Positions 498 to 34,914 of a stretch of 64,000 bases of DNA are shown here, piece after piece. The notes under the pieces are model-generated. The model saw only the letters and a program-made list of their open reading frames with translations. It searched no databases and was not told the origin of the DNA. The first letter of the stretch is position 1, and every line of letters starts with the position of its first letter. Both the position numbers and the translations under genes were made by a program. This DNA is from Antedon mediterranea (taxonomy: Eukaryota; Animalia; Echinodermata), in contig NC_092671.1 in assembly GCF_964355755.1 (NCBI RefSeq), forward strand, positions 18,662,001 to 18,726,000. Reading direction: 5' to 3'.

Positions 498-2051
498 ATG
501 TTTGAATTATGGACTATGGAATTTATCAAGCTATTTAAATTAGCTGTATATTCTTATATAATAATAATAACGTTAAGATGTACTGTAAACAGTCAGACAC
601 TCATTTCTGGCCCATCAGACGTTCGAGCCGCAGTTGGTACAGATGTAATCTTTAAGTGCTCCGCAGCTAATATCGAGTCACCGTCCGCTCTAATCTGGAG
701 AGATTTAAATGACATTGGTTATATTATTAGCTTTGGTGAAAATACATTCAGTTCTCAAATTTACTCAATAGTTGTTTCTGATGGTGGTTTATCATATGAT
801 TTGAAGATCACAGACGTACAGATCAATAATGCTGGAGAATATGAGTGCATATATGGGTATCGTAATGAAAACAATAGGTATTCAATCACACGTTGGACAA
901 CACCTGCTACGGCTACATTAACAGTACTTCAACCACCATCTCCAACTTCTCCTCGGTGTTTGCTATCTCGCAATGAGGCCTTGATTTCAGCTGAGGCACC
1001 ATTATACGTAGGAGAATCCATCAGATTACAGTGTATTTCAGAGGGTCATGGAAGTACATATCCAGCACTCGACATCACGGTATCTAATATCAGTGTTGCT
1101 GCGAGTATTATACTTAACAAATATAACTACAGGGAAGCAGAATCTGAAGACATAATGGTCGAAAATTATGATACCGAATTGAAATGTTATCTTAGTAGCG
1201 AAGCTTTGGAAGAAACAAGAACCTGTACAATAACGCTTAATGTACTTCTTCCTGAAGTGGAAATATATCCAAGTATGCAATCTGTGCAAGAGTCAACTGA
1301 CGTATATTTCCAATGTTGTGCAAGTAACTTTAAGACAACTAATCTGCATTATGAATGGCAGATATCCCCATATGTTCCTGGAGACATCTTTAATTCTAAA
1401 GATTCAATTTTAAACATTACTGACATTTCTCTCAATAACACTTTACTCGAAAAACAAATCTTTAATATCACGTGTTTAGTAACAGAAGATGGTAGGATTT
1501 GGAATGCTGCTACCACTTTGTCCATAACGCGGATTGAGCTACCATCAACTAACCACAACAGTAATAACATTGATGGACATACTAAAACTAATACCACCAG
1601 CGAATCTGAAAATTCAATAGTTGGAGTACTTATAGGAACGGTCGTCGTTGCTATATTTGTCGTATTATTAATTGTTGTATTTGTTTTTAATCGCCAAAAA
1701 TTAAACAGCATAATATTCAGAAATAAAACTATAAACATATCAGTTGATAACACACAATTATATTCGGATGTCCAAAACATGAATACAATTACAACCAATG
1801 CAGATAAAGGGAGAGACTCGTGTGATAATACTGTTTACTATTCATCAGTGCCTAATGATGCCGACAATTACGATAATGTTTGCAACATTAATGAAAATGA
1901 TGAAGCTCTGTATGAGAACAGACCTTTCACACGAGACGTCACAGAACTTAACGTAGAGGGCCTCAACTATGCTGTGTTGGATCTTCAAGAATCGCCATGT
2001 GATATTATAAACACCAATCATACCACCACATATGCCACATTGGAAAATTAA
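498..2051 (+). CDS. Single-exon Ig-superfamily type-I membrane receptor 1 (V-set + 2 Ig domains, TM, ITIM/ITSM-bearing tail)
   Basis: 517-aa ORF; the ATG at 516 is probably the true start because it aligns with the paralogue. Hydrophobic signal peptide; V-set signature FKC..LIW..YDLKI..AGEYEC; two more C..C Ig domains; TM IVGVLIGTVVVAIFVVLLIVVFVF; tail with LYENR, LNYAVL (ITIM consensus) and terminal TTYATL (ITSM-like). Confidence 0.9.
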   Translation: MFELWTMEFIKLFKLAVYSYIIIITLRCTVNSQTLISGPSDVRAAVGTDVIFKCSAANIESPSALIWRDLNDIGYIISFGENTFSSQIYSIVVSDGGLSYDLKITDVQINNAGEYECIYGYRNENNRYSITRWTTPATATLTVLQPPSPTSPRCLLSRNEALISAEAPLYVGESIRLQCISEGHGSTYPALDITVSNISVAASIILNKYNYREAESEDIMVENYDTELKCYLSSEALEETRTCTITLNVLLPEVEIYPSMQSVQESTDVYFQCCASNFKTTNLHYEWQISPYVPGDIFNSKDSILNITDISLNNTLLEKQIFNITCLVTEDGRIWNAATTLSITRIELPSTNHNSNNIDGHTKTNTTSESENSIVGVLIGTVVVAIFVVLLIVVFVFNRQKLNSIIFRNKTINISVDNTQLYSDVQNMNTITTNADKGRDSCDNTVYYSSVPNDADNYDNVCNINENDEALYENRPFTRDVTELNVEGLNYAVLDLQESPCDIINTNHTTTYATLEN

Positions 2052-2479
2052 CTAACACTAACAAAATAGTTGAGTTAATTATAATTCAAGTAATTGTAAA
2101 TAGTTAAACAAGGGACCTTATGCAGTTTATACTTCATGTAGTAATAATGGATATTGGCACGACGCGGTATTTTGAACGATACGTGCCATCAAGTCTAGTT
2201 TAGGCTCGAACGACAATTTAGATATTTGATAAAAAGATAGACATTTTGGCAAACATGGCGTGGCGTTGTAAACTTGAGTAGGCCTACTGTTAAGGAAAAA
2301 ATCACATTAGGACCCTTAATTGGGTATCCGCTGAATAGGGTTTGGATCTAGGCCTAGTTAACGTTTTAACTTCGTTCATCAATGGGAAATTGCCTCCTTG
2401 ATAGATGTGTCCCCAGAGGATGAACTCTACTGTACTATAACAACATAAAACACATTGGAGACTTTGGAGTAAGTGTATG

Positions 2480-2716
2480 AGTATGTTTCAGCATCGACAA
2501 CCATTAGACAGTGTATACCACGTTAAAACACCCCTATTCGGTGTAAATCGTTTAACCTAGATTCATTTTTATAAATAATTGTCTAGCGAAACTTAATTAA
2601 TTTTACATTAGGTGATTAAAATCAGTACCGGAAGTAAGTATGTACTAACTTTCTATAGAATTGAGTAAAGATTCTAGAAGTTACGCGCGAGTTACCATTT
2701 TTTGCCCTTAAAAAGA
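2480..2716 (-). mobile_element. Diverged 5' fragment of the non-autonomous Helitron family found at 37.9-42.6 kb
   Basis: The reverse complement reads A|TCTTTTTAAGGGCAAAA..GGTAAC.CGCGCG..TTCTAGAAT..GGTACTGATTTTAA..ATAGGGGTGTTTT..CGTGGTATACACTGTCTAATGG, collinear with the first ~250 nt of the three Helitron copies. Confidence 0.7.
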
Positions 2717-3226
2717 TATCAGTTATACGTGTATTATACTTTCCATTCTCAGTTTTTGTTATTATTATACGAATAGTAGGCCTAGTCCTTCATAAGTGTT
2801 TTTTATTTCAATTGAATTAAATAGAATGAGATTGATTAAAATACATATTGTATTAACGTTAATTATTATAATTATTTCATTCACGCCCAATGAGTCTTGT
2901 AGTAACTTATTACATTATTGGCATGTGGAGTGTGTGCGCACATGCAGGTTGATATATTTTGGAAAATATATTTTCTATCTGAATATAGTTGAATGTAGGT
3001 TTAATTGTATATGCCTAGCATTGTATATAGCCGTTCATTCATTGCTTTATGTTAAGGGTTTTTCATAGAATAAAACATAGACGGGGAAATTTGAAATTCT
3101 TCTCCTTTTCATTTCTATGAGAATTGTATTCGGCATATATTATATTATAACCGTTCGATTCCGTTGCGAATAATGTTAATATTATGATCTTATAGATTTG
3201 GTACTTAATATGTGTAAATATATTAT

Positions 3227-3376
3227 ACTTCCGGAAACTTTCCCTTATTCTATAAATTGGCGGAGGCGTAATTTTGCAGGAAGTAATCTGGTTTTGAATT
3301 ACTTTCTCAACACTGTATATTCCTTGTCATGCTGTGTATAGACGTGACTGAAACCACGGTAACGGATTTTGTGGTG
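3227..3376 (+). promoter_or_regulatory. Candidate proximal promoter of Ig receptor 2 (ETS, kB-like and Runx-type motifs)
   Basis: ACTTCCGGAAACTTTCCC (ETS core overlapping a kB-like site), ATTGGCGGAG, AGGAAGTAA, TGTGGT. ATTGGCGGAG, AGGAA(A/G)TAA, TGACTGA and GTGGT occur in the same order upstream of receptor 1 (~288-398). Motif matching only. Confidence 0.35.
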
Positions 3377-3527
3377 AAATACTATATTATCTACTTTAAA
3401 TAGTTGTAGATCTATTCTCAACCATCAGCAACTATGCAGGGCTCTGAATGAAGCTATAACGCGTAAATATAAATTTCACGACCAAGCCATTGAAACACGT
3501 CGGTGACTATACTTTCAATTTTTGATT

Positions 3528-5036
3528 ATGGAGTTTGTCAGACTATTTAAAACAGTTGCATATGCTTATATAATAATCTCGTTAATTCCTATAACTGTAA
3601 GTAGTCAATTACTACTCTCTGGTCCTGAAGATGTTCGAGCTGTAGTTGGTACAGATGTAATCTTCAAGTGCTCGGCTTATAATATTGTGTCACCGAATAC
3701 TCTGATTTGGACTGATTTAAAATATGATAACTATATTATAAGCTTTGGTGAAAGTACATTCGGTTCTAAAGTTTACTCAATAATTGTTTCTGGTGGTGGT
3801 TCATACGATTTAAAGATCACTAACGTACAGATCACTGATGCTGGAGACTATGAGTGCACATACGGTTATTACGATTATGAACGTTTATTTTACATCTATT
3901 CATCTTTTTCAACACCTGCTACAGCTACGTTAACAGTACTTCAACCACCATCTGCAACTTCACCTCGGTGTTTGCTATCTCACAATGAGACCGTAATTCC
4001 AGCTGAGACACCATTATACGTTGGAGAATCCATCAGATTACAGTGTATTTCGGAAGGCCATGGAAGTACATATCCAATACTTGGCGTCACGGTATCTGAT
4101 ATTAATGTTGCTGCGAGTACTATACTTCGTGGTTATAACTACACAGCAGTGGAATCCGTAGCCATAACAGTCGGAAATTATGATACCGAATTGAAATGCC
4201 ATCTTAGCAGCGAAGCTTTGGAAGAAACAAGAACCTGTACAATAACGCTTAATGTACTTCATCCTGAAGTGGAAATATATCCAAGTATGCCATCTGTACA
4301 AGAGTTGACTGACGTAAAATTTCAATGTTCTATAAGTAACTTCAAGACAACTAATCTACAGTATGAATGGCAGATCTCGCCATATGTTCCTGGGGACATT
4401 TTTTCTCAAACAGATTCAATTTTTAAAATTACTGACATTTCTCTCAATAACAATTTACTCGAAAAACAAATATTTCACATTGTGTGCTTCGTAAGAGAGA
4501 ATGGAAAGATGTGGAATGCATCTACCAATTTGTCAGTAACGCAGGTAAATACACCTATCACTAATTTTAACAATGATACCAGCAGCGAATCTGAAAAGTC
4601 AGTAGTTGGAATAATTCTAGGAACGGTCGTCGTTGCTATAGTTGTCATACTAATAATAATTGTCTCTGTTCTTAATCGGCAAAAATTAAACAGCATTATA
4701 TCCAGGAATAAAACTATAAACGCATCAGTCAATGACACGCCCTTATATTCTGATGTTCAAAACATGAATACAATTACACCCAATGCAGAGGAAGGGGGAG
4801 ACTCGTGTGATAATTCTGTTTGTTATTCATCAGTGCCTAATGATGCCAACAATTACGATAATGTTTGCAACATAAATGAAAATGATGAAGCTCTATATGA
4901 GAACAGACCTTTCACACAATACGTCACAGAACTTAACGTAGAGGGCCTTAACTATGCTGTGTTGGATCTTCAGGAAACATCACGTGATATAATAAGCACC
5001 AATCATACCACTACATATGCTACACTAGAACATTGA
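3528..5036 (+). CDS. Single-exon Ig-superfamily receptor 2, recent tandem paralogue of receptor 1
   Basis: First ATG at 3528 (the ORF track starts at a TTG, 3522). Collinear with receptor 1 over its full length; DAGDYEC V-set motif, TM, identical LYENR / LNYAVLDL / TTYATL motifs. Confidence 0.9.
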   Translation: MEFVRLFKTVAYAYIIISLIPITVSSQLLLSGPEDVRAVVGTDVIFKCSAYNIVSPNTLIWTDLKYDNYIISFGESTFGSKVYSIIVSGGGSYDLKITNVQITDAGDYECTYGYYDYERLFYIYSSFSTPATATLTVLQPPSATSPRCLLSHNETVIPAETPLYVGESIRLQCISEGHGSTYPILGVTVSDINVAASTILRGYNYTAVESVAITVGNYDTELKCHLSSEALEETRTCTITLNVLHPEVEIYPSMPSVQELTDVKFQCSISNFKTTNLQYEWQISPYVPGDIFSQTDSIFKITDISLNNNLLEKQIFHIVCFVRENGKMWNASTNLSVTQVNTPITNFNNDTSSESEKSVVGIILGTVVVAIVVILIIIVSVLNRQKLNSIISRNKTINASVNDTPLYSDVQNMNTITPNAEEGGDSCDNSVCYSSVPNDANNYDNVCNINENDEALYENRPFTQYVTELNVEGLNYAVLDLQETSRDIISTNHTTTYATLEH

Positions 5037-6898
5037 CAAACAGAACAGTTTAATTAGCAATAATTCAAGTAATATTAATAAATGTTTAGATCGCCTTGTA
5101 GTAAAAAGTATAGTGGCAAGATTTAAACCCGAGTTTTTTTTAAAGAGATAAAATTGAACAATACAATTTCCATTTATATCATATTGTTTTGCTTTGCTTA
5201 TGACAGTGTTAAGAATTACAGTACTTTATATTGTATTTTGTAGTTTGTTGTTTCCATTTTGTTTCATATTTATTGTAGGGGCCCTCATGAAACAAGCTTT
5301 TCTAATAAAGGTCCCAGTTATTCCTAACTGAATAAATGTGGAATGAATTGAATTGAAAAAATATATTATGTGTTTTTTGTTGTATTACTCATATGAGCGA
5401 CCTTGTTTCGATGATGTCGAAATAATTGAAATAGCCAATTATCTGCATCAACATCAATAAACTTTTCCCAACTCAGTAGTTATTGTCTTGTTTATGTTAG
5501 ACCACCAGTCGGCTTTCCGTTTTTTGTCTGAAAATAGTTTACGAGCGCAAATAGTATACGTATGAAACGCCATATGTGCCAAAAAAATTGTATTAATATT
5601 AAGTCAAAACTCTGTCTAGAACCTAGGCTACATCATAAAAAACAAAACTTGACGCCTCCTGTTGCACCTCGTCCACTTCATGAGCTCCTTTCTGAAGCAA
5701 GAGAAATCAAATACTTTACGCTGTCCGTTTAGGCCTACTTACTGTTAAAAACAATTTAATGATCGTGCATTTGTATTTATCATCTTTATTATATCTTGCT
5801 GCACAGTCTTATACCCATTGGATGTTAGTGACATTATTTTTTTAATTGTTACATGAAAAAGCAAGGTAAATTTTCGAAACACTGTTTATATGTTTTACCA
5901 AATAAGATGAATTGCATAATGCAGTTTGGATTCTGACAACATTAACGCTTACTCTAACGCTAAGCCGACTTGGTTATCCAAACAAAGGCAAGTACAGAAC
6001 GAAGATATATCGGAAGTGCTTACTTTATAGGTTGACAGTAATTTTCCGGTATCGATCTGGTGGGTCATGGTTATACGTTAACAATCTATAATTATTTAAA
6101 ATGTTAATACAATAAACATTTTTAAATGTTAAAACATTGTTTTGTAATCACATAATACTGTAAACAAAATGAAGTTAATGATAATTGTTATGTATCAATG
6201 TTACGTTACAGTTTGTCCTTTTATTTATCGAGGCTCAGGGTAATGAACCGCAGTTCACTGATTCGAACCCGGGTTAACGACCAAGGCGTAACCTTGTACG
6301 TCAGTTTAAAAGTGCTGACATAAACTTTCACTTTCTCTATTTTTCATATGATCTTGATTCACAGAATTTGAGAATTTGTTGAGCTTTGCAAACTTCATTA
6401 CCATTAACCATTATAAAACCAATACTTTTATTACAAACAACACCTATGATCAAGTATCACAAACCTCATAATGTAAAAATATGGCTATTTTTAGGGCAGT
6501 TTGGGGTATTTTAAATCGGTGAATAATCATCAATATGTTAATCAATATTTTGGGTTTGACTGATTTCTTTCCACTTACAAAATCATAACCAAATATACTT
6601 TTTTTTAAAGGTGTGGCTGGTGAGCAAATACGTTCAAAGAAGGGACTACCCACCGGAAAAAAATTGAATTGAAAAATAAGATATCAAAATAAATATAGTT
6701 GTATACATAGTACATACAAATACTGAAACTAATTATATATACAGAGACATGCTTTATATTTGAAACTAGAGGCTGTACGTTTACGTTTCAATACGTGTAA
6801 ACAAAATGAAAAACGTTACATATTCGAAACAGTTATAGACACTAACCAATTGATTGATGTTTATTATTTTTTTAGTATGTCAGAAGACATAGAGAATG

Positions 6899-8518
6899 TC
6901 AGAGACTTACTTCAGAGTAAGTTACTTTGCAACAAGTATCATGGATTAATGTTCCAGTGTATGGTAGATCCAGTTCGGCATATTTAATTCTCTCTGCTGT
7001 ACGCGAGGATCTACATTTCATCTCAACTGCAAATTCAGGTGCGTTGCATGTTAACGAAAAGTCTTCGATTGTTTCAGATGGATCTACATTTTCGTAAACA
7101 GTATCTCTTTCTTCACTCACTTCTACCTTAAGATTCGTATACGTTGGCAGGCTTAACTTCGGTTCGCTTGGTGGACTTTCAGCGTACATTTTGCGACGTA
7201 TTTTAACTGACGACGACAAGGTAGATCTATTTGGTGCTGTATATTCTTCTATTGTGTTTTCTTTACCTGATTGATAATCGTGTGGTAAATTAAGTTTGTC
7301 TATTGTGTTTGCTCGTCTTGCTTTGGAATAATTTCGAGGGTTACGATTTACTGTATTACCATGAATTGCTATCGGGTACTCCCTCGCTGTTAGTACTCTC
7401 CTGGATGACGATCTTTTATTAAAAACTCTGCCTTGTTTAGAATTTCTTTTATGAATAAAACATATCGTACATACAATAAAAATTAGAAGAAGCCCTAATG
7501 TACAGCTTATAATTATTGGTAGAACCACTACACCAGATTTTTTATTGACGTATAGAATAGTTGTTGCATTTTGAATTGTTCCACCTCCTGTGACGGTACA
7601 CGTCACTTTAGTGCCATTATACTCAGCGTGAACGTCAGGAATTCTTAATGTTGATGATGTCAATGTAAGTTCTAACAAAGATGAATATTCTGGATAGAAA
7701 TGCCATCTATATTTGAGTTGATTATTCCTAAAGTCGGTTGCGCTACATTTGAGTACCGCAGTCTTTCCCGTTTGTATCATAGGATACTGTGGTGTAAGGG
7801 TAACCTTACCGGGAGGAAGCAAATCTAATTGACACGTTTCAAGCATTCCATCGTCAATACGAAAGCGACATTGAAATGTTGTTTCATTTTCAATGACGTA
7901 GTGACCAGTTGTTTGTACTAACCTTCCTTCTACATAGTTGGGACTAGTCTTAACTTTTTTTCCATTGCGAAGAAGCTTTAACTTTGTATGTGTATTTACA
8001 TGAGAAGTTGTTGTACATGTAAACCTGACTGAGTTCCCGACAAAGAATGTAAGCCCTTCGTCAACTTCAATATTACACTGAACACCTTTCTCTGTTGGTG
8101 AAAGAACTTTCAAGAAAGCTGCAGTATTAGACGCTAACTGAACTGTATTCCCCTTTTCTGTAAAATAGACACATTCATATTTTCCACTATCACTTGCCTG
8201 AGCGTTTACAATCCTTAGATCATAACTTCGATCTCCCGAAACACCGGGTAGGATGGAGAAACGATTACTCTGATCGGAGTTTATCGTATCCAGAATTTCC
8301 CAGTTACTACTGAGATAGTCATTTATCGTAAAACTGTACCATTGGATAAAGTCGCTGTCTTTCCGGCCGTCAACATTACATGAGAGTGTGGTATCAGATC
8401 CTACCCGGATTGTTTGATTGTCTGGCCCTTTTTTCAGGTACAATCCATTGATATTTAAATATAGTGAAAATAAAATCATTAAAAACATACTGAAGTTATA
8501 ACATACATACAGCACCAT
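6899..8518 (-). CDS. Single-exon Ig-superfamily receptor 3 (V + 2 Ig, TM, ITIM-bearing tail)
   Basis: 539-aa ORF: signal peptide; LSC..IQW..YDLRI..DSGKYEC; two more Ig domains; TM VVVLPIIISCTLGLLLIFIVCTICFI; tail with TVYENV, IKYAELDL and terminal VTYSEV. Confidence 0.9.
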   Translation of the reverse strand: MVLYVCYNFSMFLMILFSLYLNINGLYLKKGPDNQTIRVGSDTTLSCNVDGRKDSDFIQWYSFTINDYLSSNWEILDTINSDQSNRFSILPGVSGDRSYDLRIVNAQASDSGKYECVYFTEKGNTVQLASNTAAFLKVLSPTEKGVQCNIEVDEGLTFFVGNSVRFTCTTTSHVNTHTKLKLLRNGKKVKTSPNYVEGRLVQTTGHYVIENETTFQCRFRIDDGMLETCQLDLLPPGKVTLTPQYPMIQTGKTAVLKCSATDFRNNQLKYRWHFYPEYSSLLELTLTSSTLRIPDVHAEYNGTKVTCTVTGGGTIQNATTILYVNKKSGVVVLPIIISCTLGLLLIFIVCTICFIHKRNSKQGRVFNKRSSSRRVLTAREYPIAIHGNTVNRNPRNYSKARRANTIDKLNLPHDYQSGKENTIEEYTAPNRSTLSSSVKIRRKMYAESPPSEPKLSLPTYTNLKVEVSEERDTVYENVDPSETIEDFSLTCNAPEFAVEMKCRSSRTAERIKYAELDLPYTGTLIHDTCCKVTYSEVSL

Positions 8519-8922
8519 CGTGAATCCTTGCTAGAAATGTTCGTTTTTAGAGTGACACGGACAGTGACTAATATGCTAGGGTTTGATTATTTCCGTTTTG
8601 TGGATGTATTATGATTGTCGTAATCTTTAAAAATATACCAAACCCAACAACATCACCTTAATTTAAATTGGACCTAACTCAACTTTAGTAAATTAGTCAC
8701 TACCCGTTGAAGGCCTACTCAAACCCATTTTCTCATAGCGTAGAGAGCGTAGTTGAACCGCCTGGATGTGTGATATTATGATTTGCATTCAATTCATAAG
8801 TCCTAAAACGATACGGTACTGTTTGTAATTCATCATTGTAATTGGATTGAACTAAACAAAAACAAACTATATTTAGGTTCTACAGAACAAAAAGTGGTAC
8901 TGGTTTTACGTGTTTATTTTAA

Positions 8923-9668
8923 AGGCCATGTGCGGGCAAAACATTTCTATTGATTAGAACATTCCAATAATTATCAATCTATAGTTTCCCCCATGTTCCA
9001 TAATTTTTTGGATTTTATTTGTCTTACATGAGTTTGTTGAAAATAAGGAATTTATTATCAGTGGGTGTAGTTCAAATTACACATTAAAATCGCTATTCTT
9101 TTGTACAAAATTTTGTAAATAGAGAGGCATTTTTAAAGCAAGGCCAACAGCCATAAGTCGCGTGCTCTCAGAAAAAAATGAACTTTCAACAAGTAATGTA
9201 CTTTAAAACTTTTCTGTACATCAAAACAGTTCATAAAGTACAGAAAAGCGATAAAACGCATAGTGATAGCGGACCGACAGACAGACCGACAGACCGAAAG
9301 ACCGACCGACCGACATAGTGAACTATAGAGTCTATAGAGAATATGAAAAATAAACTTGAATTTTACGTTTCTGGTAATTTTATTCAACTTCAGAGTTTTA
9401 TTTTTATGCTATAGCAAAAGTTATCCACCGTATATATACCATCTTTTTTCACCTTCTAAGGAGTCACCAGACATGTTATCGCATTAGGTTAAACTACCTA
9501 ACTACTGAAAAAAGGTCTTCCTGGTTTTTATAGCAGAATTTTGCCAAATTTTGTATTTGACCATTTTAAGGGAAATTCATGTTTTTCGTCTTGATTTCTG
9601 TTATAAATATTTGATTTATGTACAATTAACCCGATATTATTTAAAAAATTCATGCTTGTACCTGAGCT
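8923..9668 (+). mobile_element. Non-autonomous DNA transposon, TTAA-flanked (Kolobok-like), interrupted by a Helentron-type element
   Basis: TTAA on both sides (8919-8922, 9669-9672) and weak terminal inverted similarity. A homologous uninterrupted copy lies inverted at ~18621-19188. Superfamily inferred from the TTAA flanks only. Confidence 0.55.
9135..9333 (-). mobile_element. Internally deleted Helentron-associated (HINE/DINE-1-like) element
   Basis: Shares the GACTCTATAGTTCACTATGTCGGTCGG microsatellite head and the GAGCACGCGACT..GGCCTTG tail with the copies at 21149-21790 and 63671-63947. Confidence 0.6.
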
Positions 9669-9915
9669 TTAATGATTAGATTGGGTCATTTTACCCACAT
9701 CATTATTTTCTTTTCATTCTAGAAAGACTAATGGATGTTTATAGTTGTGAAAAAAAAATACATTACAAATACAGATTCATAAAATTGGCTATAGTAGTAA
9801 CTGATTTGCGGAAAAACATTTTTAGATTACAAATACAAATAGGCCTATACATTTTAGAATTCAAAATGTTAATATTATAAAAAAATACAATTTAAAATAT
9901 AAGCAATAATTAATT

Positions 9916-12249
9916 TCAAATATGATTTACCAATCTGTCCCGTGGACAGTTAGGTGACATGAGAGCAGTTTCCAGCCTAGTCCAAAATAAGGCCTGCCTT
10001 TCTGGATGTTTATGATGCCATCGTATATATGTTTTCTCCTTAAGAGTTTTGTGTAAAAGAGTTGGCATGTCTTTTACTGACACCTTTTCAAGAAGCAGTA
10101 CAATCAAGATATTCTCATGATTGTCAAACATCCGCATACGTGCCATCTCAAGCTCAAAATTACACCATTCACTCTCTGCAAAGCTTTTCGAAACTACCAA
10201 TACTACTTTTTGGCTGTTTTTTATAGCGTTTACAATATTGTTTGCAATACTATCTCCTCCAAGAAAATCTCGGTAATCAACGCATATTTTAAAATTACGT
10301 TGGGTCTCTAATGCAGGATGTAACACATTGAGAACCCAATTTTGATCTTTGCTGTTGTAAGCTATAAACGCATCATAGGGTTTATCTGCATTAGGTGGTC
10401 CTTCAATTGCAAATTGTTCGTATTGTTTATGAAGACGTCGTTGTTGAATCCAGAGCTGTACATCAGATCTCATGTAAAATAACAGACAAACTCCGATTGC
10501 CAAAAAGGTAGCCACGGCTAAACAAGTAAGTACTATTACCACAACTTTTTTACACGCTAACTTTCCAATATCTATTGTTTCAAGAGACTGAAGATGGGTT
10601 GAACTTACGTTAAGGCATTCCATATCAATGTGTGCTTTAGTTTCCTCCATCCAATGCTTAAGCCACACTATATTGCAAGTACACTTAAAAGTATTGTTTT
10701 TTAGATTTAGATAAGATACCTTTTCAAGTTTTGCTAATCCGGTGTTTCTTGAAACAGTAGAAAGACGATTATTACTAAAATCGATATAACGTAGTTTTTT
10801 GTGTGAATTTGAAAATACATTTTTTTGTATTTTTTCGATTCCGTTAGAGGATAAATTTAGAAGAATAAGCGACGAAAGATCTTTGAAAGTTGTTTTAAAT
10901 ACTTCCGTTAAATTGTTTGAGGACATAAGAATTTTGTTTAGCTTGTTATTGTTTATAAAGATGTCTTTCTCAATTGTAGATATTCCGCAATGTGATACAT
11001 CTAACTTTTCCAGAGATGACAGATCGGCAAACCATGTTTTACACATCTTATGAAGTTTGCTGTTTGCACGTAGAGAAAAAAAACTCAGCTTTCTTAAACC
11101 ATGAAATGCATCGTCTGAAATGTTTTCACCAACCAATTCGTTATTAGCCAAGTCTAATTTTTCCAACAACTGAAGCTCTTTAAATGTGTTTTCATGTAAT
11201 GAATGTATATCATTACTGATTAGGTATAGTTCACGTAGATTCATGTACTTGGAAAATGTGTAAACCTCGAGTGATTTTATACCACAGTATGAAATATTCA
11301 ATATGTCTAAGTTCTCCAAACCTTGAAACCAGTAATTTTGCAGTCTACCTAAGTACGTGTTGTGAGATAAATCGAGAAATTTTAGTTTTCTTAAACCAAG
11401 AAATGAATCAACTTCGATCGTTTGAATCCCACAATATGACACATCCAATATTTCTAGGGATAAAAGATCGGCAAACCATTTTTCACGTATCTTTATAAGT
11501 TTAGGGTTTCCACGTAGAGAAAAAACTTTCAGACTTTTTAAACCTCGAAATGCCTCATCGGAAATGTCTTCACCAACTAATTGATTATAAGAAAATTGAA
11601 GTTTTTCTAAAAGAATAACGGTGCTAAATGTGTTCGCGTGTAAAACATGTATTGGATTAAGTGCCAGATCAATTGATTTCAACTGTTTTAGATACTTAAA
11701 AGTGTTCTCTCCAAGACTGTAAATTTTACAAGACGATATATCTAATATTTCCAGAGACACAAGATCCTTAAACCAGTAATAGTTTAACTCAATCAGATCG
11801 TTATTGGATAGATCCAACTTCTTTAGTTTCGACAAACCTCGAAACGCATCCATTTCAATGTATCCAGATGTTAGAAAGTTACTAGACATTTTCAAAATGT
11901 ATAGATCTTGCCTTGTTATAAAGGAATTGTTCCTTATAGATTTAATATCGTTCATATCTAAGTAATAAACATTAGCATCAGTTGGAACCTTACTTTGTGA
12001 TGGAATAGCTTGTAATTGTTTATTCTTGCAGTTCACGACATGGCTATACACGTTGTTGTTGTTGTTGTTGGTTGGGCAATATGTGCAATTACATTGCTCT
12101 GGGCATCGTAGTTCACTTACAGGCTGTGTTCTTGCATACGGCTTTTCCTTGTAACATGCCGGCACTTGATATTCACAAGAAGACTCAAGAAGAACAGAAC
12201 TCAAGAACTCAAGAATATACAGACACAATATCTTAAGATTCATCTTCAT
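9916..12249 (-). CDS. Toll-like receptor (LRR-NT, LRR array, LRR-CT, TM, TIR), coding region in a single exon
   Basis: First ATG at 12249 (the ORF track starts at a GTG, 12255). Signal peptide; CPEQCNC LRR-NT; many LxxLxLxxN/C repeats; NTFKCTCNIVWL LRR-CT; TM; TIR box1 YDAFIAY, box2 CVDYRDFLGG, SEWCNFEL, box3 FWTRL. A probable 5'-UTR intron lies at 12263-12416 (CAG|GTAAG..TTGCAG). Confidence 0.95.
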   Translation of the reverse strand: MKMNLKILCLYILEFLSSVLLESSCEYQVPACYKEKPYARTQPVSELRCPEQCNCTYCPTNNNNNNVYSHVVNCKNKQLQAIPSQSKVPTDANVYYLDMNDIKSIRNNSFITRQDLYILKMSSNFLTSGYIEMDAFRGLSKLKKLDLSNNDLIELNYYWFKDLVSLEILDISSCKIYSLGENTFKYLKQLKSIDLALNPIHVLHANTFSTVILLEKLQFSYNQLVGEDISDEAFRGLKSLKVFSLRGNPKLIKIREKWFADLLSLEILDVSYCGIQTIEVDSFLGLRKLKFLDLSHNTYLGRLQNYWFQGLENLDILNISYCGIKSLEVYTFSKYMNLRELYLISNDIHSLHENTFKELQLLEKLDLANNELVGENISDDAFHGLRKLSFFSLRANSKLHKMCKTWFADLSSLEKLDVSHCGISTIEKDIFINNNKLNKILMSSNNLTEVFKTTFKDLSSLILLNLSSNGIEKIQKNVFSNSHKKLRYIDFSNNRLSTVSRNTGLAKLEKVSYLNLKNNTFKCTCNIVWLKHWMEETKAHIDMECLNVSSTHLQSLETIDIGKLACKKVVVIVLTCLAVATFLAIGVCLLFYMRSDVQLWIQQRRLHKQYEQFAIEGPPNADKPYDAFIAYNSKDQNWVLNVLHPALETQRNFKICVDYRDFLGGDSIANNIVNAIKNSQKVVLVVSKSFAESEWCNFELEMARMRMFDNHENILIVLLLEKVSVKDMPTLLHKTLKEKTYIRWHHKHPERQALFWTRLETALMSPNCPRDRLVNHI

Positions 12250-13280
12250 GAGCACGTTCAGACTGCAAATAATGCAACAATATTCTAATAATCATTTGCA
12301 ATTTGGAAGGTTTTTTTTGTTCTGTTCTGTTATAAATCAGCTAATGCTTTTATGTATATAGGCATACTAAAATGATTTAGAACAAACAACAACAAATTAT
12401 TTAGTAATAGGCTTACCTGTTGATTTTGTTATTCCTTGCAGTCCTAAAGTTTCAGAAGACGTGTATAGTTCATTCATGATAAGAATTAAAGACAAAACAG
12501 GGCCTTATGCAAAACCTTAGTGTTATTCAATTTATTGTCACGAGGTAGCATATTATTTTAAATACAATACTTCAGGGTAAAATCCGTTAATGACGTAATC
12601 TACTATTTCTATCAATAGAAAAACAAATACATAATCGTTTAATGCACTATATACCTTACTTGAATACTATACAACAAATATATATTATATATATTTATAT
12701 CGTTAGATATCTTGATAAGATTACAATTAGATAAAATTCTATAAATACAGTAAAGCATTATCCTCTGGCATTAGAAGGGCATAGAGCGACCCAATGTGTG
12801 TTTCCGGTCGCCAAACTATCACGGTAAAGCCGGTACTCGAGGAAGATATACGCTATGGTTTGGAAACTATTATTATGCCGTGACATGTTTGTATCATTTG
12901 TGTTACTAACCCTTATCTATATTATAAGAGAGAGTGTGTGCGTTAATTCGTTGTACACATAGGATATCAAAATGACTGGAAATGTACTGAGAAGGTTTAA
13001 ATGACATTTGAACCGCGCTAGGGCATGGGAGGTGGTAGTAATGGGGTATCAAAAGGAATTTGTACTGGTAAGGTTTTAAACTACAAACCCGTCCTGGAGT
13101 TGGGGCGGGAGTTACACGCTTTGGAATCATTTACAATTTATAAGAAAGGTAAAAGAAATTTATAAATTAGGAATATGTATAAATCCTAAGGCAAATTACT
13201 GGAGTGGCTGGATCTCAATGGAGATACAAAAAAAAAGCGAAAAGCTAAATCAAAACGAAAGTAAACAGCCAGAAAAGTTG

Positions 13281-13317
13281 GCAGAGCTTTCGGGCAACAC
13301 TAGCCCTTCATCAGTGC
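13281..13317 (-). ncRNA. Minimal type-I hammerhead ribozyme motif (Penelope-like-element type)
   Basis: The minus strand reads GCA-CTGATGA-A-GGGC-TAGTGTT-GCCC-GAAA-GC-TC-TGC: core boxes CUGAUGA and GAAA, 4-bp stem II, palindromic AGCU in place of stem III, 3-bp stem I. Predicted cleavage 3' of the C at 13284. Confidence 0.75.
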
Positions 13318-13479
13318 AAGTGAAGGAATTTGGATAACGTCATAGTATAAAGCTGGCAAGGGCTTATATATGTATCATTTAAAAATGTATCTGCTGTAGC
13401 TAACTTCTTTGGTAATGCCTATATTATATATCAAACACGGAGGATGGCACTTGGTACTTGGTTTGTTTCCTCCTGAATC

Positions 13480-13790
13480 TTCCAGGAGGGAAATTAACTA
13501 GGAGGTCTCAGTGAAGTGGTGGTACTGTTTAATTGGTTTTGACAAGGTGCTTGCTAAAATCTTTGTTTGCATGTTTAGTTACGTTAACAATAGACTGCGA
13601 TAGGGTATTCCATGTTCTAATAGATAATAGGGAGGGAAAAAAGATTGCTGGTAGACTGCGGATGAAGTTTGTGGAACTATTAACTGTTTGCTGTGTCTTC
13701 TTCTGGCCCTTTGACTTTTTAGTTTCAGGATCTCTGTACTGTCTTTGCATATAGTAATATCTTGGTTGATAATTTTAAAAGGCCAACTTA
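13480..13790 (-). mobile_element. Degenerate 3' end of a CR1/L2-group LINE ORF2
   Basis: Two frames join to RARRRHSKQLIVPQTSSAVYQQSFFP..IRTWNTL, the SFFPR..WNxL motif typical of LINE ORF2 C-termini; frameshifted. Confidence 0.55.
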
Positions 13791-14087
13791 TTAGCACAAC
13801 CTATGTACTACCTTAAAGGTAAAGGAACACTAGTATTACTATATTTGAAAACCCCGTCTGAAAGTAATATAAGGCCTACTATTTATATCTTTAAAAACAG
13901 GTCTAAACCGCTATCATTTAGAAATTATTTATTTTCTATCCTGCTAATTTATTGTTGTTAGCAATCTCGACTCGTGATGTTTCAAGCATTACGGATATTG
14001 ATTATCGTTATTACTTCCTTCACAGAACAGTGTTGTTATTTTAGTTAGTTCAGTTTACTTACAGTTATAGACCTAATTTATAACAAT

Positions 14088-15536
14088 ATGATACGAATAC
14101 AATTGTTCTTTCTACTTTTTAGTATTGTAAAACACGCCAAATTTGCAACGATTGCCAATGGACCAATGAACACTACTGAAATTAAAGGAGAGACAGTGGA
14201 GCTAAAATGTGATGCAGACTATGTATTCCGAAGCTCAAATGTCGTTTGGTTTCACAATAGCAGTGGTACAAAAATCAGCAAAAACTACGATGTGTTGTTT
14301 AATGAATCTACTAAATCGGAAAGATATTCAATCCAAAACAGTGGTGGGTATGCTAATAAAGTATATAACCTTCAAATAACGAACTTTTCATCAGAAGACG
14401 CAGGTTTGTACTCATGTTCTATAGTAAAGCAGAATGATGAGCAGATTGTTGATTCAACTTGGGCAGTGTTATCTATAAATCCTCCTGGCCACATGACACC
14501 ACCAACATCTTCCCTTACCTGCAGTATTGATACAATGGATGCAGAAATTGGTGATGAAATCATGATTACCTGTCAATGCGAAGGCGGTGACCCTCCACCT
14601 TTACTGAGCTTATTGATAGACGGAGAAGAAGAAACAGAATCAATTTATACACAAAACCAAGTTCATACCTTAACCAGAAGTATAAGCTTAACAGAAAATC
14701 ATATCGATGTGTTATTTAAGTGTAAGATGGTAAGCGCAGCACTTATCAGTCCAGGTTATTGTTCCATCAAGCCATTGCCAGTTGTTTCAATTGTTCCATT
14801 TCAACCATCTGTCAGAGAGAACGAAACCCTGGAATTAAGTTGCCAAACTACCAGTGATGTATTCAATCAAGAATTTGAATGGTTAATTGATAGGTTGTCT
14901 TGCAGAACTGTATCGCTTGATAACTCAAAAGTTTCAAACATCCTCATCATTTATAATGTACCAATGTCATTCAATGACTGCAGTGTAACTTGTGTAGTGA
15001 AATTAATTGGACGTGCTACTGTCACGATTAGAGTCATGTCTAGAATCGTGAAAACGACCGAGATGCCTGTTACACTTTCCACGATGTCCACTGATGAAAT
15101 GTATGGAAAAACTATTCCAATAGCCATTGAGTCTGTAATTGTTATTGCAAGTTGTTTAACTGTGTTTATACTTATAATGACAATTGTGTGTGTTCTCAGA
15201 CGAAAGATTAACAATAAAAAATTGTCCAACCAACAAAATGTTAATGTTCAATCAAAAAATGAGGATTTATATGTAGATACAACAAACGAAAATATTCCCA
15301 ATAATCTAGAAAACACTTCGCCAGTTTCTCCAGAGTCAACTAATTCAGAGGACCAATCACTTTGCAGCGGTATCGTATACGAAAACGTACAGTTAGACAA
15401 TGGCGATTCTGAAAATGCAGCTGCTGAATGTGCCCCTCTACGTAGATTAAACTATGTTGAATTGGATTTAAGGTCTTCTTCAGTAGTTCATAATAATACG
15501 CAACCTACGTTGTACTCGGATATTGTTTTATCTTAG
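14088..15536 (+). CDS. Single-exon Ig-superfamily receptor 4 (V + 2 Ig, TM, ITIM/ITSM tail), head-to-head with the TLR
   Basis: 482-aa ORF: signal peptide; LKC..VVW..YNLQI..EDAGLYSC; C2-type CEGGDPPP domain; third Ig domain; TM; tail with IVYENV, LNYVELDL and TLYSDI. Confidence 0.9.
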   Translation: MIRIQLFFLLFSIVKHAKFATIANGPMNTTEIKGETVELKCDADYVFRSSNVVWFHNSSGTKISKNYDVLFNESTKSERYSIQNSGGYANKVYNLQITNFSSEDAGLYSCSIVKQNDEQIVDSTWAVLSINPPGHMTPPTSSLTCSIDTMDAEIGDEIMITCQCEGGDPPPLLSLLIDGEEETESIYTQNQVHTLTRSISLTENHIDVLFKCKMVSAALISPGYCSIKPLPVVSIVPFQPSVRENETLELSCQTTSDVFNQEFEWLIDRLSCRTVSLDNSKVSNILIIYNVPMSFNDCSVTCVVKLIGRATVTIRVMSRIVKTTEMPVTLSTMSTDEMYGKTIPIAIESVIVIASCLTVFILIMTIVCVLRRKINNKKLSNQQNVNVQSKNEDLYVDTTNENIPNNLENTSPVSPESTNSEDQSLCSGIVYENVQLDNGDSENAAAECAPLRRLNYVELDLRSSSVVHNNTQPTLYSDIVLS

Positions 15537-16873: not shown

Positions 16874-17033
16874 TTATTCCCACCCAATCGTTTCCCCTTC
16901 GTTTTGTTCTTTAAGCCATTCAAATAATGGTTCAAAATAACTTTTAATTGCAGATGTATCAATTCTTCTCTGTCCAGTAATTTCTTGCATAGCATCCTGC
17001 CATGGTCGACTTGCGCCCATACGTAACATAGCA
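16874..17033 (-). CDS. ACE: ACE exon 11 (terminal)
   Basis: [52 protein letters not shown]. Confidence 0.92.
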
Positions 17034-20000
17034 CTATAAATAGAACACATATTTTAAAGTTACAGACCACGTCTATACATACTATTCAAAGAAGAATGTG
17101 TAAGATTGAATGATTTCATTATACGATAGTCAATTTTTTGACGGATCACCAATCGGGTAGCCATCCAATACTTCCCAGAACTTGTGTGTGCAATCAAGAT
17201 AATTGGGAATGTGATTGTACTCTGGATGGTATGGAAATCATGTTATTTTATTTAACTTGGTTTAATAATGAGCTTAAACTTTGAAGGATACAGATGTGGT
17301 ATACAATAGTAGATAAAAAGCCATAATGTGAATATTTGTATTTCGTATTACAAAATATAATAAATATTAACATTTTGATGACCTGACCTTCGATATGACG
17401 TAATGTTTTATAAATATATACACATGATATAAAAGTTTAAAATTAAATTTAATTAATTAAAGTGCCTCATATATAGTTATTAATAATCCAAATTGTTTTC
17501 TTTTAACACAACCCGTTTTTCTTTTAAATAAGTTTTGATTTACCGCTATTTGCAATAACTTACCCTAGTTTATCTCCAGCCTCTTTTGATTGGTAAATAT
17601 TACATCGATGGATGGGTCCCTCGTGGTGTTTTGCTTTACACAAGGCTTCATGAAATTGAAATTGAATTAAGAAGCTCACAAAATATCTGAAACAAACATT
17701 GGTGGAAATAAGTTACTTTCGGGTTATTGTGTTTTATAAACGACTGAACAAAAATAGATTTGAGCCTATAAAATATCTAGAAAATCAAGTTTTGGACATG
17801 TTTTATAAAGAATTGGAAAATATTTACAGTTAAGAATAACAGGCTTTATTTACACTGGGGCTACTAAATAAGAAAATCGCAATCAATCTCTATGTCATCC
17901 CTCGACCAAATGATACTTTTTTTTGGTTTGTAAATGAAGGCCTACATATGTTTCATTTTCATCGAAATAAACGATAAACTGAATTGAATTGTGAACGTAC
18001 CTTATATATGGAGTTCCTGATGGTATATGGTATTTTGCGCCAGGGTCAAAATCAGCAGCTGTTCTTTCAACCGGTGCTTCAATTCCTTGATATTTTGTCC
18101 TTAAAATATTTTAATTCACAAAATATTTACACACTTCCATTGATAAATTAACAAATGACACAATATCAACTGATGTTAACAAAGTAATTACATTACACTA
18201 TTCACTGTAGAATGGGAATGACCCACTAAAATTGAATTGCAGCCCAATAAAAAGGATTTTAAAAGTTGTAATAATGTAACAATAACCTGTGATTACCCAT
18301 GTATTTCAAAACTTTTACGAAGTGGTAACACAATTAAGGCGCTATAACGAAGACAATACTAGATCATACTATTATTTATTTTTGTTAGTTTATCATTATG
18401 AAATTGCATATTATTTCACAGGCACTTGTCATAGGGATTTAGTTTTGTGTTTCATTACTTTGAAGTTGTTTGTTTGTTGTTGTTGATTGGCAATAAAGAA
18501 TAAGAATTATAGGCCTATGTCAGTTTTATTGTAGAAATAAATTGAAATTGAAACTCTTTGGATCATGTGCACATCCCCAACCAAAAAATTCGATAGAGGA
18601 CGCTGCATAAACTTTTTTAAAGCTTAGATACAGGTATGAATTTTAAATATAATATCTGGTTAAATGTACATAAATCAAATATTTGTATCAGAAATCAAGA
18701 CGAAAAAACATGAGTTTCCCTTAATTTGGTAAAATACAAAATTTGGCAAAAATCTGCCATAAAAATCAGGAAGAATTTTTTTCAGTAGTTAGGTAGTTTA
18801 ACCTAATGTAATAACATGTCTGGTGACTCCCTAGAAGGTGAAAAAAGATAGTGGATATACGTTGGATAATTTTTGCTATAGAATGAAAATAAAAATCTGA
18901 AGTTGAATAAAAATACCAGAAATGTAAAATTTAAGTTATATTACCTATATTCAGTCTTCTGATTAATTTTCATAGCTTTTTAAAATGCCTCTCTATTTAC
19001 AAAATTTGTGTACAAAAGAATAGAGATTTTACTGTGTAATTTTAACTTTCTGATAAAAAAAGTGCTTATTTTCAACAAGCTCGTGTAACACAAATAAAAT
19101 CCCAAAAATTATGAAACATAGGGGAAACTATAGATCGATAATTATTGGAATGTATGATCAATAGAAATGTTTTGCCCGCACCGGGTCTTGTATGAATGTG
19201 TTTGTTAAAAGGAAGGCTTCCGCGATTTGGAAATTCTATAAACATTACAGTAAACAAAAATAAGCATCACCCTATCAATTCTTATTGATGGTTATAGTAG
19301 AAAGCAATAGCATAACCTCGCCGGAAAATAAATGTAAAATATGTACTCATCTAAAGATGTAAGCCTACCTGAGCTCCCACCACTTGGAATTGTAATTTTC
19401 TGGAGTTGTTATGCCTCTGAAAACGTCCCATCGCCATTTATCAATCATAAAGCCAAATGGTAAAAACGCTACTTTGACAAGAGCTTGACGTAGAAGAAAG
19501 TCAATATCATGATCTGTAAAGGAAAAAAATATTTTCGTCGTACTTTCTATTTTTCCATTTATTTATTCGACAAGGAAGAGTAAAATTACACAGGCGGTTA
19601 AGTTGCGATACCCACTATCCACTATCCTGAAGTTTGTTCGTTAATTGTTATGCTTTATTTATCACCGAACATCAACGTTTCATTTCACTTTGTAATTGAC
19701 ACTTTGTAAATTGGATTCAATTATGACTATTTTCGTACGAACATACGGCGCTTAATTAGTAGAACACATAATGTGGATTTTAATTCAATCTGATTATATC
19801 AATCTGATTAGAAATACTAAGTAATTGGTTCGCTTTGGTTTTTACGTTGAAATGGACATAGATTAGGTAATTTATCATAGAGTTAAGTAAACCACGTCGC
19901 TGAAGAAACTGGTTTGTAGAACATGATATCCACTTAACTTATAATCTAAGTTTCTTTGACATATACTAATGACTGATCATGTTTTCGGATATTGGTATCT

Positions 20001-33076: not shown

Positions 33077-34914
33077 ATTAATATATATTGTAATTGTTAT
33101 CAATTTACGAAATCATGTGCACACTTTTCGTTTTCAAAATTAGCTCTAATGAAGTCTACAATTGATATTTTGGAATAATTATGATTGCCGAGTGATTGTT
33201 ATTATCATTAAAGCTACAGAGCGTGAACAAAAATACGGAACCGCGACGCACTCGTCGCTTTCAAAATGAGAATTGCGTGGTTGAACTGACGCTTGGGAGA
33301 ACACTAGACTCAAGAAATTGTTAATGTCTACCTTACCACTTACAACATAATATTTCAATGTAAATTACAGGACACGTGATTGCAAGCAATATTAGTAGTG
33401 ACAGAACTAATATTCGGAATAATTCACAGGCTTGTATTAGCATTCTTGTTATTAGGCAACTAGTGATGAACATAATTATTTCATATTTTATTTTATTTTA
33501 TTTCATCATCACCCTACAGTGACCAAACGTCACCATTAACAGGGTTGAAAGACATAAAATATAATATATAGTAGCCTACAAGCAAAAATCAACAAATAAC
33601 AAAACAACATTTAGATATTACTGACATTAGACAAAATCTTATGACGGGAACAAGCAAGTGAATAAAAAAAAATATCAACAGATCCATCAACTTGACATAG
33701 TGAGTGGTATAACTTAGGCAAACGATATGATAAAATAACACAAAATTAAAACCAAAAATCTAATAAAATATATTATTTTATATTTTGGTAATGCGATTTA
33801 TTTGACCAGTTTGTAGAATGATGTTAGGCAAAATGTCACAATATGTATGAACAGATCAACGTTTAAAAGTCGAGCATTATTATAGTATGGTAAGAAACCA
33901 ACTTTACCGAATGAACAATGTTGCTAAAAAACAATATAGCCTATCTTTCTAGGATTTTCAATTTAGGTGAAATGTGTGGGATTGCGAAACGGATAAAGAC
34001 CGGGTGGAAAAGAACAAGTTTCATTTAACAAGATCAACAGACTTATTTAAGATAAGATAATAATTTATTAGGCAAATATTAACATAGGACTTGCTGCAGC
34101 ATATTGCTTGTCTTTTTTCACTAATCTTTCTCCACCTACACATGTCACTTTATGATCAGAACATACAATGAGTTATGTGGCTGAGATTTTACACGTTATT
34201 CCCGATGGAGAGCAAGGAGGCCATACACATTGTATGCTTCAGATTTATGTTTTCACACTATAGTGTATACACTTACTATTTGAAAGATTTATGACTGTAG
34301 GTGGGGAATATGTTCTCGAAACAATTTCATGTACAATTCCAAATGGAGTATGTATCAAGCGTGGTTCCCATTAGTCAAAATGACGTGTGCTCAACGCAAT
34401 ACGCAAGTTAGTTGACCAATCACAGGTGACATTTGGATGATCCATCGCGTCATGATTGGTCAAATTAGTATTTAAATTATTATTACAATTATTTTTTATG
34501 AATATACTGTACAATTAGTAGCTTTTTTTCAACTGAAAACATTAACAAAAAATAATAATATGCACTAATAACTTACGCTAACATAAAACATGTTTGTTTA
34601 TCAACTTCACGTTTCCCATAAATTACCAAAGATGTCAAATCTTAAGAGGTATTTAAAATTTTAGCATAAGTGTCGTAATATATAGTGTCGTGTATATATA
34701 GGGCTAGTGTCGTAAAATTTAGCTGCCATAATTGGTATATTATATTGTTATTTCATCAACTTCAGCGTAACTAACCAATTTCATAACTTTCATTGTTATA
34801 TTAATCTCGAGTTTGCTATTAATTTATTATTATTTACAACATAATTGTCTTACCAATCTACACTCAATATCATAATTATCTGTAAATTCATCATCGTCAT
34901 AATAATATCCATAT

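What the first reader, a model, noticed from the sequence alone, without database searches (positions are those of the whole stretch)
498..15536. Cluster of four intronless ITIM/ITSM Ig receptors surrounding a Toll-like receptor
Seen: within 15 kb are four single-ORF receptors with the same plan (signal, V, Ig with an extra flanking Cys pair, Ig, TM, Tyr-rich tail) and one TLR. The TLR is in tandem with receptor 3 and head-to-head with receptor 4. Known: vertebrate Siglec, SIRP and PD-1-type receptors use V domains plus tandem ITIM/ITSM motifs to recruit SHP-1/2, and some dampen TLR signalling; those genes are multi-exon. Inference: an invertebrate inhibitory-receptor family physically linked to an activating pattern-recognition receptor, a candidate self/non-self or immune-checkpoint locus. 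The cluster may continue left of the window.
Basis: partly seen in the sequence, partly recalled or inferred. Interest (0 to 1): 0.82.

Follow-up and report, generated by a model that had tools for sequence, protein, structure and literature searches.

The report
Feather-star KirrelL-type receptors with inhibitory tails
A feather star has four neighbouring intron-free antibody-domain receptor genes of a known echinoderm cell-contact family, each ending in a conserved pair of tyrosine motifs that likely recruits a signal-damping phosphatase; the Toll-like receptor gene between them is real, but probably only a neighbour.

Summary
Four uninterrupted ORFs encode signal–V–Ig–Ig–TM receptors, and a complete TLR lies between receptors 3 and 4. 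Receptor 4 matches an Antedon mediterranea record. The intron-free three-Ig plan with the extra Cys pair is not new: it is the echinoderm KirrelL/Kirrel2L family, known from skeleton-forming mesenchyme. What I found undescribed is the tail. A C-terminal ITIM plus ITIM/ITSM-like pair, tyrosines 20–32 apart, occurs in all four and in 26 of 92 homologues (0.16 expected by shuffling), from crinoids, sea stars, a brittle star, urchins and hemichordates. Receptors 1–3 sit in a crinoid-only clade whose V-domain FG hairpin changes fast while the tail end is conserved. Best reading: contact receptors that likely recruit SHP-type phosphatases. An immune role is plausible but unshown: an urchin Kirrel2L orthologue, a skeletogenic gene, has the same pair; domain dN/dS is about 0.5; polymorphism looks low. 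The TLR link could not be tested (no genome held), and no Anneissia TLR orthologue appeared. Not Siglec, SIRP or PD-1. New variant of a known kind.

The parts
498..2051 (+). R1: single-ORF receptor, signal-V-Ig(extra Cys pair)-Ig-TM-tail; ITIM LNYAVL and ITSM-like TTYATL, Tyr 21 apart (a second Met at 519 may be the start)
3528..5036 (+). R2: tandem duplicate of R1 (74% aa; DNA 81% over 1.6 kb), same motif pair; ectodomain model pLDDT 94
6899..8518 (-). R3: diverged member of the same crinoid clade; two ITIMs (IKYAEL, VTYSEV), Tyr 21 apart
9916..12249 (-). Single-ORF Toll-like receptor: signal, LRRNT, at least 14 LRRs by a strict pattern, one LRRCT, TM, TIR
12250..14087 (.). 1.84-kb spacer between the divergent TLR and R4; holds a high-copy repeat near 13040-13600; shared promoter untested
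   Evidence: depth table
14088..15536 (+). R4: separate sub-lineage, sister to Anneissia LOC117110816; strict ITIM LNYVEL plus ITSM TLYSDI, Tyr 20 apart
16874..21060 (-). 3' exons of a multi-exon ACE-like (peptidase M2) gene that bounds the cluster on the right; not part of it; ends approximate

Best explanation
These are four intron-free KirrelL-type three-Ig surface receptors whose conserved twin tyrosine motifs likely recruit an SHP-type tandem-SH2 phosphatase on cell contact and so likely damp activating signals in mesenchymal cells such as coelomocytes, while the TLR is probably an incidental neighbour. Shown: open frames, domain plan, family membership, motif enrichment, a fast-changing FG hairpin in the V domain, a conserved tail end. 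Predicted: a nectin/Necl/Kirrel/SIRP-like three-Ig rod. Inferred: (1) the V-domain GFC face, with its long variable FG hairpin, binds a partner on another cell, each paralogue a different one; (2) a Src-family kinase phosphorylates both tyrosines; (3) the two SH2 domains of an SHP1/2-type phosphatase bind them together (about 0.8); (4) the output is inhibition in immune or phagocytic mesenchyme rather than in skeleton-forming or neural cells (about 0.55).
For: Motif pair in 4 of 4 window proteins and 26 of 92 single-TM homologues against 0.16 expected. Because the search profile included the tail, I also counted hits scored on the ectodomain only: 7 of 55. Tyr spacing 20-32, last motif near the C-terminus; PD-1 and BTLA have 25 and bind SHP1/2 bivalently, and a medium non-polar residue at pY+1, as here (Ala or Val), favours SHP1 binding (PMC8631942 passages). 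The last 75 residues are the best-kept part: 87% R1/R2, 84% between two Anneissia paralogues, 49-55% across genera, against 68%, 53% and 37-40% for V; dN/dS 0.24 there. FG region 30% identical between R1 and R2 against 73% for the rest of V (Fisher p 0.0005, segment chosen after seeing the alignment), and variable in length, whereas four KirrelL orthologues keep a fixed-length hairpin at 55% (4 of 4 pairs tested). R1-R3 fall in a 7-row clade of crinoid proteins only (SH-aLRT 97, quick tree), with separate duplications in Antedon and probably Anneissia, as in birth-and-death recognition families. Precedents: oyster CgNCAM1 recruits SHIP2 (PMC11841013 abstract), amphioxus BbLcLRR recruits SHIP1 and SHP1/2 (PMC8211107 abstract). 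A relative, Kirrel2L_4, marks probable blastocoelar cells (PMC12189403 passages); that these are larval immune cells is recalled.
Against: The Diadema orthologue of Kirrel2L (P0060, P0276; matched by eye to Sp/Lv/Et Kirrel2L) has the same pair, and Kirrel2L is listed as a skeletogenic-cell Ig protein, so the motif does not mark immunity. No domain shows positive selection between R1 and R2: V 0.51 (95% 0.29-0.85), whole protein 0.50. In R4 versus its Anneissia sister the tail end (36%) is less conserved than V (46%). The best structural matches include adhesion molecules (Necl-4 Z 17.1, DIP 16.5-16.8, nectin-3 15.5) as well as SIRP-gamma (14.9). SHP2 can also act positively downstream of growth-factor receptors (recalled). 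No expression, phosphorylation or binding data. The crinoid phosphatase itself was not identified.
Confidence: 0.48

Rival explanations
1. Developmental adhesion or fusion receptors like KirrelL and Kirrel2L, used by skeleton-forming or regenerating mesenchyme; the tail would recruit SHP2 as a positive scaffold for growth-factor/ERK and cytoskeletal signalling, with no immune role.
For: Same ectodomain family as KirrelL, which is needed for skeletogenic cell fusion and lacks introns (PMC8903837); the search with R1-R4 retrieved KirrelL itself (P0055); a Kirrel2L orthologue has the pair; fold matches to Necl-4, nectins, DIPs, Neph1/Rst; purifying selection.
Against: R1-R4 are not KirrelL or Kirrel2L orthologues (Anneissia has its own kirrelL). 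0 of 4 KirrelL orthologues carry the pair. Lineage-specific duplication and a variable FG hairpin contrast with the fixed KirrelL hairpin.
Confidence: 0.3
2. A functional checkpoint locus: the TLR and R4 share a bidirectional promoter, and the receptors damp that TLR's MyD88/NF-kB output in the same cells.
For: The TLR lies inside the cluster, 1.84 kb head-to-head from R4. Contigs of a second organism (run X6) cover R3, the TLR and R4 at 92-97% identity. An oyster ITIM receptor lowers NF-kB output (PMC11841013 abstract).
Against: No listed X6 contig bridges two genes. The Ig cluster looks conserved in Anneissia (LOC117110815, 816 and 744 on contigs of the same length, 2,362,059 bp), but no Anneissia TLR was among the best 120 of 566 hits (weak, only 7,978 candidates scored). 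The motif pair occurs in many homologues and predates this arrangement. The spacer holds a high-copy repeat.
Confidence: 0.13
3. A polymorphic allorecognition locus like Hydractinia Alr, with allele-specific homophilic binding giving an inhibitory self signal.
For: Clustered V-Ig receptors with ITIMs, as for some Alr genes (10.1101/2022.03.04.482883 passages); variable FG hairpin; an R4-like contig of organism B differs by 8.1% plus 53 gap letters against 3.3% for R3.
Against: Within organism A, differences are few: 0 in the 336-bp R4 V region in a second sample; 6 in 1,968 bp around R4, 3 in 3,395 bp around R3 and 1 in 1,226 bp covering the R1 V domain in run X3. Only two samples, and contigs drop variants. 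No Fn3-like domain; Alr domains are exon-coded.
Confidence: 0.05

Closest known systems
Echinoderm KirrelL / Kirrel2L / Hypp1164 / IgTM proteins (PMC8903837: passages, section 10, supplement files 5 and 7 part 1)
   Same: Signal-V-Ig-Ig-TM plan, extra Cys pair flanking D2, intron-free coding region (stated for kirrelL); retrieved by the R1-R4 profile; a Kirrel2L orthologue shares the tail pair.
   Different: Not orthologous; 23-28% identity in local alignments; crinoid-specific duplication; longer, variable FG hairpin; KirrelL lacks the motif pair; no tandem cluster or ITIM is mentioned in the parts read.
SIRP-alpha, PD-1, BTLA, CD33-related Siglecs (motif rules from PMC8631942 passages; domain plans recalled)
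   Same: N-terminal V domain and a C-terminal tandem ITIM + ITSM/ITIM at similar spacing; SIRP-gamma is among the top fold matches.
   Different: No orthology evidence (14% identity in the structural alignment); no C1 domains detected; no Siglec Arg; three Ig rather than one; single-exon coding region.
Nectin / Necl (CADM), DIP/Dpr and Kirrel/Neph adhesion molecules
   Same: Best structural matches for the three-Ig rod.
   Different: These tails end in PDZ-binding motifs or GPI anchors (recalled), not a twin ITIM.
Invertebrate ITIM receptors: oyster CgNCAM1 and CgIgIT2, amphioxus BbLcLRR, Hydractinia Alr
   Same: Invertebrate receptors with ITIMs; phosphatase recruitment shown for CgNCAM1 and BbLcLRR (abstracts).
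   Different: Different ectodomains (Fn3, LRR, Fn3-like); none from an echinoderm. CgIgIT2 seen only as a cited title and one passage.

Membership tests
Echinoderm KirrelL-type three-Ig family | Signal-V-Ig-Ig-TM with eight conserved Cys, extra D2 pair included | tested here: met
   same pattern visible
Echinoderm KirrelL-type three-Ig family | Coding region without introns | tested here: met
   an NCBI model adds a 10-residue first exon to R4; UTR introns untested
KirrelL or Kirrel2L orthologue | Groups with KirrelL or Kirrel2L in a tree | tested here: not met
   KirrelL clade (99) and the Kirrel2L pair (99) exclude R1-R4; quick tree, no AU test
KirrelL-type family | Expression in skeletogenic mesenchyme, role in fusion | not testable with these tools
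   no run on record as RNA
Tandem ITIM/ITSM inhibitory receptors (functional class) | Two consensus motifs about 25 residues apart near the C-terminus | tested here: met
   (20-21 apart); strict ITSM only in R4
Tandem ITIM/ITSM inhibitory receptors (functional class) | Phosphorylation and SHP/SHIP recruitment, inhibition of an activating pathway | not testable with these tools
   needs biochemistry
Siglec | Essential F-strand Arg and relocated V-domain disulfide (recalled) | tested here: not met
   F strands read YEC/YSC with the canonical B-F Cys and no Arg in 4 of 4
SIRP | V-C1-C1 ectodomain (recalled) | tested here: inconclusive
   only a sub-threshold C1-set hit in R3 (E 0.08); SIRP-gamma Z 14.9, rmsd 7.7, 279 aligned, below Necl-4 and DIP
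PD-1/CD28 family | Single V domain ectodomain (recalled) | tested here: not met
   three Ig domains
Hydractinia Alr | Extreme allelic polymorphism of the ectodomain | tested here: inconclusive
   few differences in two samples; contigs drop variants
Single-cysteine-cluster TLR | LRRNT, LRRs, one LRRCT, TM, TIR | tested here: met

The most novel reading that the evidence does not exclude
Echinoderms and hemichordates share an ancestral, undescribed family of checkpoint receptors, built on the KirrelL-type scaffold, with PD-1/SIRP-like twin tyrosine tails and a CDR3-like variable hairpin; in feather stars one cluster has captured a TLR head-to-head so that sensor and brake are co-expressed in coelomocytes.
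Probability: 0.12. Interest if true: 0.82.

Novelty: new variant of a known kind. Interest (0 to 1): 0.5.

Why it matters
Echinoderm immunity is known for expanded activating sensors; my ten library searches turned up no echinoderm ITIM receptor family. A conserved twin-tyrosine tail across crinoids, sea stars, brittle stars, urchins and hemichordates gives concrete candidates for the missing brake, testable in sea urchin embryos and larvae. It also ties a skeleton-fusion gene family to inhibitory-type signalling through Kirrel2L. If the role proves developmental, the result is a useful note on Kirrel2L signalling rather than on immunity.

Tried and rejected
Genome-wide count and TLR linkage test: no genome held. 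Expression: no RNA holder listed; run X5 is only guessed to be RNA, and its uneven cover was not used. Homodimer prediction of R2 D1-D2: no verdict (score 0.00, alignment not used). Positive selection: R1/R2 dN/dS is below 1 in five of six segments; the TM value (1.45, interval 0.39-6.7) is uninformative. A depth-2.7 contig of organism B over part of the R4 V domain gave, by hand, 10 replacement and 6 silent changes in 32 codons outside the indels, not above neutral; it may be a paralogue; X6 and X7 laid nothing there. One search returned 1 protein and missed P0001, so it says nothing on absence. R1-R3 themselves are missing from the representative library, so the lack of an Anneissia R3 there is weak. 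PDB sequence search gave generic Ig hits. Atlas features pointed to fasciclin-3-like and CADM-like clusters; a second Atlas query did not complete. Ettensohn and Dey 2017 is not held and may discuss these tails. The published Kirrel2L tails were cut off in the supplement, so the pair is shown for the Diadema orthologue only. Earlier findings by sequence, by words and near this place: none.
Full report
Observation. Four open frames of 482-539 codons and one of 777 lie at the stated coordinates. Pfam finds Ig families in R1-R4 and LRRNT, LRR, LRRCT and TIR in the fifth. R1 and R2 are 74% identical; R3 and R4 are 24% and 27% identical to R1. The TLR is in tandem with R3 and divergent from R4. tblastn finds no other member in the window, and a multi-exon ACE-like gene follows on the right. 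No genome was held, so the left side and genome-wide counts are open. R4 is identical, apart from its first residues, to Antedon mediterranea XP_071942844.1. None of the 7 window translations looked up is in the collection exactly; the TLR appears as a 657-residue model lacking its first 120 residues.

Family. A profile of the four, run on 1.84 billion representatives, gave 3,178 hits; I saw the best 150. P0055 matches Acanthaster KirrelL in length (544) and in the visible part of the supplement of PMC8903837 (by eye). P0072, P0093 and P0116 group with it. P0060 and P0276 (Diadema) match urchin Kirrel2L. That paper says kirrelL lacks introns in all echinoderms examined and is needed for fusion of skeleton-forming cells (passages, section 10). 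The eight Cys, extra pair included, are kept in 67-68 of 68 rows. So the intron-free plan and the extra Cys pair are known family traits. An AlphaFold model of the R2 ectodomain (pLDDT 94) matches Necl-4 (Z 17.1, rmsd 7.2, 272 aligned), DIPs, nectins, SIRP-gamma and Kirrel/Neph; none stands clear.

Tree. Of 154 proteins, 96 had one predicted TM at residue 250-620; 89 covered the core and went into a quick IQ-TREE run. R1, R2 and R3 lie in a 7-row clade (SH-aLRT 97) with Anneissia LOC117110815 and LOC117110744 and two other Antedon proteins whose contig length equals that of R4's record. R4 pairs with Anneissia LOC117110816 (99). The three Anneissia genes share a contig length of 2,362,059 bp, and two have consecutive gene numbers; I infer that the Ig cluster predates the split. 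Neither the KirrelL clade nor the Kirrel2L pair includes R1-R4.

Tails. All four end in an ITIM and a second motif 20-21 residues on; shuffled tails give this in 0.3-0.6% of cases. Among homologues it is 26 of 92 against 0.16 expected. The profile included the tail, so I recounted hits scored on the ectodomain alone: 7 of 55. Of the 26, 17 were looked up and 12 are named: 5 crinoid, 2 asteroid, 2 echinoid, 1 ophiuroid, 2 hemichordate. The label changes at least 12 times on the tree, so it is old and often lost, or gained more than once. PMC8631942 (passages) gives the consensus, a 25-residue spacing in PD-1 and BTLA, bivalent SH2 binding and a preference for a medium non-polar pY+1 residue; the four have Ala or Val. 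Only R4 has a strict ITSM. The four KirrelL orthologues lack the pair; the Diadema Kirrel2L orthologue has it. That is the main point against reading the motif as immune.

Variation. Between R1 and R2 the tail end is 87% identical and V 68%; dN/dS is 0.24 and 0.51, and 0.50 overall: relaxed, not positive. The FG region is 30% identical against 73% for the rest of V, and varies in length in the clade, while KirrelL keeps it fixed (post-hoc segment; FG loops vary in adhesion families too). R4 against its Anneissia sister does not show the tail-end excess (36% against V 46%). Contigs of organism B (run X6) differ from R4 by 8.1-8.4%, from R3 by 3.3%, from the TLR by 2.8-5.7% and from flanking DNA by 4.3-6.9%; the R4-like contig could be a paralogue. 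Within organism A differences are few, which weighs weakly against an Alr-like locus.

TLR link. Only adjacency is shown. No Anneissia TLR was among the best 120 of 566 hits, a limited search. No listed organism-B contig bridges two genes.

Mechanism. Most likely a V-domain contact triggers tyrosine phosphorylation and bivalent binding of an SHP-type phosphatase (inferred, about 0.8), acting in immune or phagocytic mesenchyme (inferred, about 0.55). Precedents: oyster CgNCAM1 (PMC11841013, abstract), amphioxus BbLcLRR (PMC8211107, abstract), Hydractinia Alr (10.1101/2022.03.04.482883, passages). Kirrel2L_4 marks probable blastocoelar cells and Kirrel2L is used as a skeletogenic marker (PMC12189403, passages). 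Rivals: developmental adhesion 0.30, TLR-coupled locus 0.13, allorecognition 0.05.

Literature. Ten searches (listings and abstract starts only) showed no echinoderm ITIM Ig receptor family. A 2026 sea cucumber immunity review has no 'ITIM' in its main text (PMC13673367); an invertebrate IgSF review mentions ITIMs only in its mollusc section, for mammalian LILRBs (PMC11999971, passages); PMC11310086 (passages) added nothing. Most subscription journals are missing, Ettensohn and Dey 2017 among them; part 2 of supplement 7, the cut tails and bioRxiv supplements were not seen and may bear on novelty. Siglec, SIRP, PD-1 and nectin domain features are recalled.

Verdict. Real cluster, known scaffold, apparently undescribed inhibitory-type tail across echinoderms and hemichordates, immune role and TLR link unshown. 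New variant of a known kind; interest 0.5.

Noticed in passing
P0060 / P0276 (Diadema), C-terminus: The Kirrel2L orthologue, a skeletogenic-cell Ig protein, ends in a twin ITIM (LVYADL, VAYAKL; Tyr 29 apart); its sister P0111 lacks it.
   Followed up: partly
window 9916-10400 (-): The TIR BB loop of the TLR reads RDFLGG, with Gly where many MyD88-coupled TLRs have Pro (recalled).
   Followed up: no
window 10982-11652: Internal duplication within the TLR's LRR region: 228 bp at 74% identity; several run differences cluster at 11428-11484.
   Followed up: no
window 16874-21060 (-) and beyond: Multi-exon ACE-like peptidase M2 gene with an HEMGH zinc motif near 20370; upstream exons not mapped.
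   Followed up: partly
window 56311-61900 (+): LTR-retrotransposon-like element with gag, RT, RNase H and integrase-like frames broken by shifts, followed by a TatD-like frame at 61000-61884 (domain names from recall, no scan run).
   Followed up: no
window 34886-36750: Low-complexity tandem repeat with strong negative GC skew that gives spurious long frames.
   Followed up: no
P0043 vs P0037; P0071 vs P0047; P0056 vs P0057; P0028 vs P0044: Related ectodomains occur with and without the twin motif, which recalls paired receptor families; some may be truncated models.
   Followed up: no
window 498-8518: R1-R3 are absent from the protein libraries searched, so public annotation may miss three of the four genes.
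   Followed up: partly
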